This document shows positions 3,833 to 6,800 of a stretch of DNA of 64,000 nt, piece by piece (position 1 is the first letter of the stretch; each line of letters starts with the position of its first letter). The position numbers are program-made. The stretch comes from Escherichia coli (GTDB lineage Bacteria > Pseudomonadota > Gammaproteobacteria > Enterobacterales > Enterobacteriaceae), in assembly GCF_002854065.1 (NCBI RefSeq), contig NZ_CP024147.1; one strand, 5' to 3'.

Positions 3833-6800
3833 TAATTCGTTATTCAACGAGACGTAAAAACGCCGACCAGTGGTCGGCGTTTTGCTTTATAGCGAAAGCG
3901 TTACAACTGGTAGTATAACGCTCTGATATCTATTAATTAGCTTGTCGCTAACTGTACTTGCGGTTCTTCATCTTTAACTTTGATAAGCGTCCACAGCGCA
4001 ATGGCGCCAATAATGTCAAAGAAAGCCAGGGCAATAAAGAACGGCGCGAAGCCGATAATGTGAACGAATGCCCCGATAAACAGGTTGAAAATCAACTGAC
4101 CGCTCCACGCACAGGCTCCTGCCATACCCACTGCGGTAGCTACTTCGTCTTTTTTGAACAGATCGCCACCCAGAGTTGCTGCTACAGTAGAAAGACATTG
4201 ATGCGAGAACGCGCCAATACTAATCAGTAATACGGCAATGTAGGGATTTTCGACAATACTCACCAGGCCAATCGTCATCATAATGACGGCTGCAATAGTG
4301 AAGGTAATTCTTCGTGAGTTAATTAAACTCACGCCGCGATCGTGGAAGAACTTCGCGACAAAACCACTGGCTAAACAGCCGAGATCGCCCAGCAGGAAAG
4401 GCAGCCAGACGAACATGGCAATTTCTTTCAGGCTAAAATGCAGCGTTTCGACGAAGAAAATCGGCACCCAGAAGTTAATGGTTCCCCATGCCGGGTCTGC
4501 GAGAAAACGCGCGATGCCAATCCCCCAGAAATTACGTTGGCTGAGGATATGCTTGATTGACGTTTTTTCTTTCTTATCTGTTTTAAGATGCTGTTCTTGC
4601 CCTGATTCAATATAGTGGCGCTCTTCATCAGAAAGGCGTTTGGCATCTTTCGGATCTTTATAACAAAAGAACCAAAATAAAGCCGCGAGCAAAGCAAGGC
4701 TACCTGAAACAATAAACGCAAATTGCCAGCTATGAAACATAATGCACCAGGCAATCAACGGTGGAGCAAGCATCGCGCCGAGTGAGGTGCCCATATTGAA
4801 AACACCTGTCGCCACGCCACGCTCTTTTGCCGGGAACCATGTTGATGCGGTTTTTACACCCGCCGGAATTGCCGACGCTTCGCTGAAACCCATCAGGGCG
4901 CGCATAAATGCCAGACCTGACCACGTTCCGGTTAGTGCATGGCCCATTGTCGCCAGGCCCCAAATTGCGGCACATATCGCAAAACTTAACTTCAGACCCA
5001 CGGTATCAATAAAGAAGCCCATTACCGGTTGCCCTAATGTATAGGCCAACTGGAATGCACTGACAATCCATGAATATTGCTCTTTAGTTATTCCGGTTGT
5101 CTCCATAATCGTTGGAGCCGCAATACCTAACGCCGTTCTGTCCAGATAATTGATTACAGTGATAAAGCATACGAGGGCAATCATATGCCACCGGTAATTC
5201 GGTAATGACTCCAACTTATTGATAGTGTTTTATGTTCAGATAATGCCCGATGACTTTGTCATGCAGCTCCACCGATTTTGAGAACGACAGCGACTTCCGT
5301 CCCAGCCGTGCCAGGTGCTGCCTCAGATTCAGGTTATGCCGCTCAATTCGCTGCGTATATCGCTTGCTGATTACGTGCAGCTTTCCCTTCAGGCGGGATT
5401 CATACAGCGGCCAGCCATCCGTCATCCATATCACCACGTCAAAGGGTGACAGCAGGCTCATAAGACGCCCCAGCGTCGCCATAGTGCGTTCACCGAATAC
5501 GTGCGCAACAACCGTCTTCCGGAGCCTGTCATACGCGTAAAACAGCCAGCGCTGGCGCGATTTAGCCCCGACGTATCCCCACTGTTCGTCCATTTCCGCG
5601 CAGACGATGACGTCACTGCCCGGCTGTATGCGCGAGGTTACCGACTGCGGCCTGAGTTTTTTAAATGGCGGAAAATCGTGTTGAGGCCAACGCCCATAAT
5701 GCGGGCGGTTGCCCGGCATCCAACGCCATTCATGGCCATATCAATGATTTTCTGGTGCGTACCGGGTTGAGAAGCGGTGTAAGTGAACTGCAGTTGCCAT
5801 GTTTTACGGCAGTGAGAGCAGAGATAGCGCTGATGTCCGGCAGTGCTTTTGCCGTTACGCACCACCCCGTCAGTAGCTGAACAGGAGGGACAGCTGATAG
5901 AAACAGAAGCCACTGGAGCACCTCAAAAACACCATCATACACTAAATCAGTAAGTTGGCAGCATCACCCATCTACTGCGCACGAATAAAACTGCCATCCG
6001 GCTGGCGGGTAAACAGGACCTGTTGATTATTCCCCGTATCAATAGTTAAGCCCGTCACCACGCCGCTGGCGTTCTGGCGGATTTTCACCATCTGCCCGTT
6101 TTGCAAATTACTCAGCGGCTTACCCGCGCCTTCTACCTGCGCCATTGCATAGACATCGGTAGCGGGCAGTCCGTGGTCGCGGAACAGCTGCGCCATCGTT
6201 TTACCGGGTTCGACACGGTAAGAGCGCCATTGATTATCAATTCCGCTATCTGGCTGGAATGGTTGTGTTTGGGTAGTTTGCGGCTGTTCTTCTGGCTGGC
6301 CTTCCTGTATAGGTTCTGGAGCGACCGGAGCCACCTGATCAGGATCATTTTGTGGTGTGACTAATTGCGCCCGCAGCTGTTCTTCTGTCGGCGGTTGTGA
6401 TTGCGACTGAATATCTAACTGCGCTTCACGCGTCACCACCGGCGCGTTGGGCGTATCATCAGATGGAAGCAGAAATCCGACCACCAATATAATGGCGGCA
6501 ATAATGATCCCCCGACGATGCATCGGCGGCAGCGGGTCCATGAAGCGAAAATTGTCCGGCGCGTGCCAGACTTTCTCCAGGGTTGGTTTTAGTTCAAAGC
6601 GCCCGGGCATGGTTTCCTCCTGCTCCGCGTCTTGTTCCTCAATCATAGCCTATGAATAAGCTAACGCTATGATGTCCGTGGTAAACCCGCCTTTATTATA
6701 TTCATACGGGATATTGCTATTGTTTCTTTTTCCCCGGGATTTGTCATCATTCCTGCGACAAAGTTTTACCCAAAGAAGTGTGGCTGATATGCTGCCCGCT

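What the first reader, a model, noticed from the sequence alone, without database searches (positions are those of the whole stretch)
5160..5216. IS1 end fuses an in-frame TTG start and five codons onto the truncated MFS transporter
The transporter reading frame continues unbroken into the IS1 terminal repeat, giving a hybrid N-terminus MESLP- that starts at a TTG inside IS1; the first native ATG is at 5184. By analogy with ExuT, only the first few native codons are missing. IS1 ends are known to form hybrid outward promoters, so the transporter may still be expressed from IS1 rather than inactivated.
Basis: inference. Interest (0 to 1): 0.45.

Follow-up and report, generated by a model that had tools for sequence, protein, structure and literature searches.

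The report
IS1 deletion joint orphaning a transporter gene
An IS1 mobile element has deleted about 7 kb of an accessory E. coli operon, leaving only its last gene (a transporter), and the open reading frame that runs on into the IS1 end is a chance by-product, so this is ordinary genome erosion.

Summary
An intact 768-bp IS1 (5201..5968) abuts the transporter gene, and the frame stays open into the IS1 right end up to a TTG at 5214. The intact orthologue shows that IS1 replaced exactly the first 14 nt of the gene. MNKIK became MESLP and the length stays 425 aa, so the first membrane helix is untouched.

The "expressed from an IS1 hybrid promoter" reading does not hold.
- The TTG is the first half of the IS1 outward -35 box (TTGGAG), so a promoter using that box would start its transcript downstream of the TTG.
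- The flank has no -10 box at 16-18 bp.
- The TTG has no ribosome-binding site; the native ATG at 5184 has a modest one.

IS1 also has no target duplication. Flanks 100% identical to E. coli strain 97.3 show that IS1 replaces 6,995 bp: five enzyme genes, the TetR regulator and all native upstream DNA. The transporter is an orphaned last gene. Two other IS1 joints at this gene's start are out of frame, which fits a 1-in-3 chance. Weak read-through from ytfB or the IS1 promoter is not excluded. Interest is low.

The parts
5201..5968 (-). Complete IS1 element (768 bp). The transposase genes read on the minus strand, the same direction as ytfB and the transporter gene.
   Evidence: Canonical terminal repeats, the A6C frameshift motif and 768 bp length. 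It is 99.7% identical to an IS1B-annotated copy.
5201..5223 (.). IS1 right inverted repeat (IRR), facing the transporter gene. It contains the outward TTGGAG hexamer at 5209..5214.
   Evidence: Sequence; IR alignment.
5946..5968 (.). IS1 left inverted repeat (IRL), 3 nt beyond the ytfB stop codon.
5934..5961 (-). IS1's own promoter-like site in IRL (CTGCCA-16-TATGAT). It is the only sigma-70-like site found in 3800..6100.
5638..5913 (-). insA ORF of IS1 (91 aa).
5216..5719 (-). insB ORF of IS1. Its TAA stop lies 1 nt upstream of the TTG at 5214.
5212..5214 (-). In-frame TTG inside the IS1 tip. It is the candidate start of the hybrid ORF and also the first half of the outward -35-like hexamer.
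   Evidence: SD energy is -1.1 kcal/mol.
5182..5184 (-). First native ATG retained (Met11 of the intact protein), preceded by a GGTGG Shine-Dalgarno-like motif.
   Evidence: SD energy is -6.8 kcal/mol. Gene callers often start intact copies here.
3937..5214 (-). Hybrid ORF. It is an ACS-family MFS transporter gene with codons 1-5 replaced by IS1 sequence (MESLP instead of MNKIK).
   Evidence: PF07690.
5200..5201 (.). Left deletion joint: native transporter sequence ends at 5200 (third base of codon 5).
   Evidence: Window 1063..5200 is 100% identical to strain 97.3 and stops matching at 5200.
5968..5969 (.). Right deletion joint: homology resumes at 5969, 20 nt before the end of the island's TetR gene and 3 nt after the ytfB stop. 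There is no 9-bp target duplication (cggtaattc against catctactg).
5972..6610 (-). ytfB, intact, directly upstream of IS1 and co-directional with it. It is a possible source of read-through transcripts. The mechanical ORF extends to 6646.

Best explanation
This is the scar of an IS1-associated deletion. An intact IS1 now stands where 6,995 bp of an accessory six-gene operon used to be. The lost DNA comprises:
- the divergent TetR-family regulator gene;
- the operon's promoter region;
- five enzyme genes (SDR, xylose-isomerase-like protein, crotonase, CoA-transferase and a 690-aa flavoprotein);
- the spacer upstream of the transporter gene;
- the first 14 nt of the transporter gene.

The deletion arose either by intramolecular IS1 transposition (adjacent deletion) or by recombination between two direct IS1 copies. 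The transporter gene, formerly the last gene of the operon, is left without any native promoter, ribosome-binding site or start codon.

The open frame running 14 nt into the IS1 right end is a coincidence of phase (1 in 3), not an expression device. The IS1 end does not form a hybrid promoter with this flank, and the TTG is not a credible initiation site.

Any residual expression would have to come from transcripts that start upstream, at ytfB or the weak IS1 IRL promoter, and read through IS1. Translation would then more likely start at Met11 (ATG 5184) than at the TTG. With its pathway enzymes and regulator gone, the gene is best regarded as an orphaned remnant on the way to decay.

Shown: the anatomy, the extent of the deletion, the N-terminal replacement, and the absence of a -10 box and of an SD. 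Inferred: low or no expression, and the mechanism of the deletion.
For: IS1 limits and integrity.

No target duplication.

Flanks 1063..5200 and 5969..7336 have 0 mismatches to E. coli O68:H12 strain 97.3, which carries the intact island, and 6,995 bp are missing. The result is the same against a BL21-type genome, at 6,996 bp.

Native N-terminus is MNKIKNYRWHM against hybrid MESLPNYRWHM.

Promoter scans find only the IS1 IRL promoter in 3800..6100. A lenient scan finds no -10 at 16-18 bp from TTGGAG.

SD energies: TTG -1.1, ATG-M11 -6.8, native M1 -3.8 kcal/mol.

Literature: IS1 termini alone do not drive a reporter, and activity depends on the 20 bp flanking the insertion (PMC5526668). Of three co-oriented IS1 insertions in ST131, only the one with a properly spaced -10 raised transcription; one lowered it and one left it unchanged (PMC8764528). 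IS1 lacking direct repeats is the expected product of IS1-mediated deletion or recombination (PMC9330008).

The same island is eroded independently elsewhere. Strain 23AR1101 has another IS1-flanked deletion. K-12 retains only a TetR fragment, ytfA. UTI89 and J-8 have simple IS1 insertions with 9-bp duplications in the gene's first 17 codons, both out of frame.
Against: No intrinsic terminator-like site lies inside IS1 on the sense strand. The 439 nt downstream of the insA stop show no C-over-G bias typical of Rho loading sites. Transcripts from ytfB or the IRL promoter could therefore cross the joint.

The coding sequence downstream of the joint is 100% intact, so the event is recent and says nothing about selection.

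The reporter data in PMC5526668 were obtained with the other (5') IS1 terminus.

No transcript data exist for this strain.
Confidence: 0.8

Rival explanations
1. One reading: the IS1 right end and the flank form a hybrid outward promoter, and the MESLP-transporter is translated from the TTG inside IS1, so the gene is re-wired rather than inactivated.
For: IS1 ends do carry an outward -35 box that can create hybrid promoters (PMC8764528 and PMC9330008). The frame is open and the first helix is intact.
Against: The TTG is part of the -35 hexamer itself, so the two halves of the model exclude each other. No -10 lies at 16-18 bp; TATGAT sits at spacer 23. The TTG has no SD. The IRR hexamer TTGGAG matches the consensus in only 3 of 6 positions.
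Confidence: 0.03
2. Read-through model: transcripts from ytfB and/or the IS1 IRL promoter run through IS1 into the transporter gene. A functional transporter is then made constitutively at a low level, mainly from Met11 (ATG 5184, GGTGG SD) or occasionally from the TTG by re-initiation after the insB stop 1 nt upstream. It is no longer under TetR control.
For: ytfB, IS1 and the transporter gene are all co-directional, with no intrinsic terminator-like site between them. No rut-like composition is seen in the untranslated part of IS1. M11 has a usable SD, and gene callers choose it even in intact loci.
Against: By my own recall, not checked here, classical genetics found IS1 polar in both orientations, and the IRL promoter is weak and repressed by InsA. 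Co-oriented IS1 did not raise osmB or ugd transcripts. A Met11 start removes the basic tail and the invariant R8-W9 found in all orthologues. insB is translated only after a rare frameshift, so coupling to the TTG would be minimal. The pathway enzymes are gone.
Confidence: 0.15
3. Sub-rival on origin: the joint arose by homologous recombination between two separately inserted direct IS1 copies, one at codon 5 and one behind ytfB, rather than by one-step intramolecular IS1 transposition (adjacent deletion).
For: Both routes leave one IS1 without direct repeats (PMC9330008). This region is hit by IS1 repeatedly.
Against: Neither single-insertion parent joint is present in 5,426 complete E. coli genomes. 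The data cannot decide between the routes.
Confidence: 0.4

Closest known systems
IS1-mediated adjacent deletion or IS1-IS1 recombination deletion (Reif and Saedler type; Turlan and Chandler 1995, as cited in PMC9330008)
   Same: A single intact IS1 remains at the joint. There is no target-site duplication. A contiguous block next to the element is lost, and one flank is a gene truncated at its 5' end.
   Different: Nothing material. This particular allele is not present in the collections searched.
IS1 hybrid (fusion) promoters (Prentki et al. 1986; afaA in ST131, PMC8764528; IS1-p0 in PMC5526668)
   Same: An IS1 terminus with its outward TTG-type -35 hexamer faces a promoterless gene in the co-oriented configuration.
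   Different: The required -10 hexamer at 16-18 bp in the flank is absent. The joint lies inside the coding sequence, so a hybrid-promoter transcript would lack the start of the gene.
ACS-family MFS organic-acid transporters (ExuT, DgoT; TC 2.A.1.14)
   Same: 12-helix MFS fold family. It aligns to DgoT at E = 2e-40 over residues 9-410 and keeps the TM1 LDR motif. The short basic N-tail M-x-K-I-K-x-x-R-W is also seen in ExuT (ExuT sequence from my own recall).
   Different: It scores below the curated cut-off of TIGR00893 (315 against 395 bits) and its substrate is unknown. In this window the tail charge drops from +3 to 0.

Membership tests
IS1 insertion sequence | About 768 bp with imperfect terminal inverted repeats of about 23 bp (GGTAATGAC... 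/ GGTGATGCT...). | tested here: met
   5201..5968 is 768 bp, and the IR alignment is. The IRR pattern is unique in the window.
IS1 insertion sequence | insA and insB' ORFs with an A6C -1 frameshift motif. | tested here: met
   insA is 5638..5913 and insB is 5216..5719. AAAAAAC lies at sense position 306.
IS1 insertion sequence | 8-9 bp direct target duplication flanking a simple insertion. | tested here: not met
   The flanks are cggtaattc and catctactg. This is explained by the 6,995-bp deletion. It concerns the insertion event, not the identity of the element.
IS1-mediated deletion | One IS1 copy replaces a contiguous segment that is present in close relatives, with the flanks otherwise colinear. 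| tested here: met
   Flanks are 100% identical to strain 97.3, with 6,995 bp missing between them. The result is the same against L007.
IS1 hybrid outward promoter | A -35 hexamer in the IS1 terminal repeat facing outward. | tested here: met
   TTGGAG lies at 5214..5209, 8 nt from the tip. It matches the consensus in only 3 of 6 positions.
IS1 hybrid outward promoter | A -10-like hexamer in the flanking DNA, 16-18 bp from that -35. | tested here: not met
   The hexamers are GGTGGC, GTGGCA and TGGCAT. TATGAT is at spacer 23. The consensus scan finds no site at the joint.
IS1 hybrid outward promoter | A transcript start downstream of the joint that depends on the IS1 end. | not testable with these tools
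   Needs 5' RACE or dRNA-seq on the strain.
Expressed translational fusion (hybrid N-terminus) | A start codon with a ribosome-binding site, or efficient translational coupling. | tested here: not met
   TTG upstream SD energy is -1.1 kcal/mol, and 88% of random 22-mers do as well or better. The upstream insB frame is translated only by a rare frameshift (established knowledge, cited in PMC9330008 references 48-49).
MFS superfamily, ACS family (TC 2.A.1.14) | MFS_1 domain, and similarity to DgoT/ExuT including the TM1 D-R motif. | tested here: met
   PF07690. DgoT 6E9N matches at E = 2e-40, with LDR aligned to VDR. TIGR00893 is the best NCBIfam hit but below its cut-off, so the subfamily and substrate are not assigned.

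The most novel reading that the evidence does not exclude
The repeated, independent IS1 hits at the first about 50 bp of this transporter gene and its upstream spacer may reflect selection rather than only IS1's taste for AT-rich DNA. The events seen are this window, the UTI89/ST95 lineage, J-8, 23AR1101, 30EVA2, 2017.01.04CC and an opposite-orientation copy. The selection could be to silence the transporter, or to uncouple it from TetR control. In this strain the transporter would then be made constitutively by read-through from ytfB and IS1, and would import its unknown organic acid without the catabolic enzymes.
Probability: 0.05. Interest if true: 0.4.

Novelty: already known. Interest (0 to 1): 0.1.

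Why it matters
It matters little beyond annotation. The gene should be treated as a 5'-truncated remnant of a deleted operon, not as an intact or IS-activated transporter. Automatic pipelines will probably call it intact, from the TTG or from Met11, as they do for the UTI89 and J-8 alleles. The case also shows that an open frame running into an IS end is not evidence of expression: here the candidate start codon and the candidate -35 box are the same bases. The recurrent IS1 erosion of this accessory island across E. coli lineages is a minor point for pangenome studies.

Tried and rejected
1. I searched for the exact IS1-transporter joint in 5,426 complete E. coli genomes, in GTDB species representatives and in JGI metagenome contigs. 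I searched for the IS1-ytfB joint in the E. coli genomes. I looked up the 425-aa hybrid protein in the gene-position index. None was found, so neither the source lineage nor a single-insertion parent could be identified. Short-read assemblies break at IS copies, so absence from metagenomes means little.

2. I first suspected Shigella because of IS1. This was rejected: there is only one IS1 end in the 64-kb window, and the flanks are 100% identical to ordinary E. coli strains.

3. I looked for a hybrid promoter with a relaxed scan (at least 7 of 12 matches, spacers 15-19). Only ATTACC-15-TATGAT and TCATTA-17-TATGAT appeared. Both have very poor -35 hexamers, and both would start transcription after Met11.

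4. I tested for a rut-like C-over-G bias in the untranslated part of IS1 to support Rho polarity. None was found, so the expectation of polarity rests on classical literature recalled from memory.

5. I tried to read Mahillon and Chandler 1998 and Olliver 2005 for the exact IS1 -35 hexamer. Neither is held. A text search for TTGGAG gave only irrelevant hits. That TTGGAG is the outward -35 box is therefore my own reading of the sequence plus recall of Prentki 1986.

6. NCBIfam naming of the island's enzymes gave no pathway assignment.

Full report
**What is in the sequence.** The window carries rpsF-priB-rpsR-rplI on the plus strand. On the minus strand it then carries, in order:
- a 425-codon ORF, 3937..5214;
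- an insertion sequence;
- ytfB, 5972..6610.

These are followed by fklB and cycA.

The insertion sequence is a complete IS1 at 5201..5968. It is 768 bp, with canonical terminal repeats (GGTAATGACTCC... at 5201 and ...GGCAGCATCACC ending at 5968). It has insA at 5638..5913, insB at 5216..5719 and the A6C frameshift motif. Its genes read on the minus strand, so ytfB, IS1 and the transporter gene are all co-directional, and the IS1 right end (IRR) faces the transporter gene.

Read on the minus strand, the joint is ...CAA TAA G TTG GAG TCA TTA CC|G AAT TAC CGG TGG CAT ATG ATT..., where | marks the IS1 tip. The frame is therefore open from the TTG at 5214, and the first native ATG starts at 5184.

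**Comparison with the intact orthologue.** About 31% of complete E. coli genomes (1,685 of 5,426) carry this gene. In a BL21-type genome the gene is 425 codons and starts ATG AAT AAA ATA AAG AAT TAC CGG TGG CAT ATG. IS1 has thus replaced exactly the first 14 nt by its own last 14 nt. MNKIK becomes MESLP and the length is unchanged.

Orthologues at 80-85% identity occur in Providencia, Edwardsiella, Yersinia, Pantoea, Gilliamella and Orbus. All begin M-[KNR]-x-[IL]-[KRP]-x-x-R-W-x-M, with a net charge of at least +3 before the first helix. UTI89 and BL21 differ only synonymously in codons 7 and 8. Met1 is therefore the real start, even though gene callers often pick Met11.

The closest solved structure is the D-galactonate transporter DgoT. 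It aligns from W9 onward and shares the helix-1 LDR/VDR motif. The replaced residues therefore lie in the short cytoplasmic tail, not in helix 1. The tail charge falls from +3 to 0. This is outside the natural range seen, but it is unlikely by itself to destroy a 12-helix protein. That last point is inference.

IS1 has no target duplication: the flanks are cggtaattc and catctactg. Window 1063..5200 and 5969..7336 match E. coli O68:H12 strain 97.3 with zero mismatches. In that genome 6,995 bp lie between the two points. Against BL21-type DNA the figure is 6,996 bp.

The missing DNA holds:
- a TetR-family regulator, divergent from the operon and overlapping the ytfB 3' end;
- the regulator-operon intergenic region;
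- five genes: SDR, xylose-isomerase-like protein, crotonase, FadX-like CoA-transferase and a 690-aa FAD_binding_2 flavoprotein;
- the spacer in front of the transporter gene.

The transporter gene was the last gene of this operon. An IS1 without direct repeats at a deletion joint is the classical product of IS1 intramolecular transposition or of recombination between two IS1 copies (PMC9330008). No genome in the collection has IS1 at only one of the two joints, so the route cannot be decided. Zero substitutions in about 30 kb of flank show that the event is very recent.

**Does the IS1 end drive the gene?** Published work agrees that IS1 carries only an outward -35 box in its repeat and needs a -10 box at the right distance in the flank.
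- In reporter constructs IS1 termini alone were silent, and activity depended on the 20 bp next to the insertion (PMC5526668).
- In ST131, three co-oriented IS1 insertions gave a 7-log2 increase, a 2-log2 decrease and no change. Only the first had a proper hybrid promoter (PMC8764528).

In this window the outward hexamer is TTGGAG at 5214..5209, a 3-of-6 match to the consensus. The hexamers at spacers 16, 17 and 18 are GGTGGC, GTGGCA and TGGCAT. The only good -10-like hexamer, TATGAT, is 23 bp away and overlaps the Met11 codon. The consensus scan finds no promoter-like site at the joint. The single hit in 3800..6100 is IS1's own promoter in the left repeat.

The proposal is also self-contradictory. 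The TTG start codon is the first half of the -35 hexamer, so a transcript from that promoter cannot contain it.

**Could the TTG be used on a longer transcript?** The 22 nt upstream of the TTG pair with the 16S rRNA tail at only -1.1 kcal/mol, and 88% of random 22-mers from the window do as well or better. Met11 has GGTGG at -6.8 kcal/mol, and the native Met1 has AAGG at -3.8 kcal/mol.

The insB stop lies 1 nt before the TTG. However, insB is translated only after a rare programmed frameshift (established knowledge), so re-initiation would be negligible. If a transcript crosses the joint, Met11 is therefore the likelier start. The product would lack the conserved basic tail and R8-W9.

**Can transcripts cross the joint?** This is not excluded. 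ytfB now ends 3 nt before IS1, and no terminator-like hairpin lies inside IS1 on that strand. The 439 nt after the insA stop show no C-over-G bias. My recollection is that IS1 is strongly polar in both orientations and that its promoter is weak and repressed by InsA. That is a lead, not a result obtained here. I put meaningful read-through expression at about 0.15, and the hybrid-promoter model at about 0.03.

**Chance and context.** The phase match has a prior of 1/3. Two other IS1 right ends sit in the first 17 codons of this gene, in the UTI89/ST95 lineage (duplication aaagcatac) and in strain J-8 (duplication aatcatatg). In both, the IS1 TTG frame hits a stop within 6-10 codons.

Further independent IS1 copies lie at these places:
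- 47 bp upstream in 23AR1101, with a second, different deletion;
- 140-240 bp upstream in 30EVA2 and 2017.01.04CC;
- upstream in the opposite orientation in GCA_949767385.1;
- in mid-gene in 2017.11.01CC.

The IS1 copies differ by up to 3.8%, so these are separate events. K-12 has lost the island altogether and keeps only a TetR fragment, ytfA. The picture is of an accessory island that is repeatedly eroded, with an AT-rich IS1 hot spot at the transporter gene's 5' end.

**Verdict.** The feature is an ordinary IS1 deletion joint with a fortuitous in-frame extension. The transporter is an orphaned, probably silent or weakly read-through remnant. Novelty: a known kind of event. Interest: low (0.1).

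Noticed in passing
Window 5150..5300 region; L002, L003, L004, L005, L011, L015: The first about 50 bp of this MFS gene and the about 250 bp upstream of it have been hit by IS1 at least seven separate times in different E. coli lineages. The sites differ and the IS1 isoforms differ (96.2-99.7% identity), and most copies are co-oriented with the gene. The target contains GGTAAT, which is identical to the IS1 tip, next to an AT-rich spacer. This looks like an IS1 hot spot.
   Followed up: partly
L015 1648..2415 (E. coli 23AR1101): There is a second, independent IS1-flanked deletion in the same island. IS1B lies 47 bp upstream of the transporter gene and abuts a truncated sugar-phosphate isomerase gene. 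The flavoprotein, CoA-transferase and crotonase genes are missing.
   Followed up: partly
L004 3076..3078 (E. coli UTI89, NC_007946.1): RefSeq annotates the IS1-truncated transporter gene of UTI89 as an intact 413-aa MFS transporter that starts at an ATT codon lying inside the IS1 terminal repeat. In J-8 the truncated gene is annotated from Met11. Both are probably annotation artefacts of the same kind as the TTG start here.
   Followed up: partly
L016 3195..3596 (E. coli K-12 ytfA): The K-12 pseudogene ytfA corresponds to the last about 400 bp of the island's TetR-family regulator gene. It overlaps the ytfB 3' end in the same way. K-12 has lost the whole operon and has yjfZ in its place.
   Followed up: yes
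L007 637..8916 (intact island, absent from the window between 5200 and 5969): The deleted operon has no assigned pathway. It encodes a PRK12745-type SDR, a xylose-isomerase-like TIM-barrel protein with no NCBIfam hit, a crotonase, a FadX-like CoA-transferase, a 690-aa fumarate-reductase-like flavoprotein and an ACS-family MFS transporter, under a divergent TetR regulator. Close orthologues of the transporter occur in Providencia, Edwardsiella, Yersinia, Pantoea and the bee-gut genus Gilliamella.
   Followed up: partly
Window 5216..5640 (minus strand): The part of IS1 downstream of the insA stop shows G over C on the sense strand (C/G 0.64-0.91). It therefore has no composition typical of a Rho loading site, despite the classical description of IS1 as polar.
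   Followed up: no
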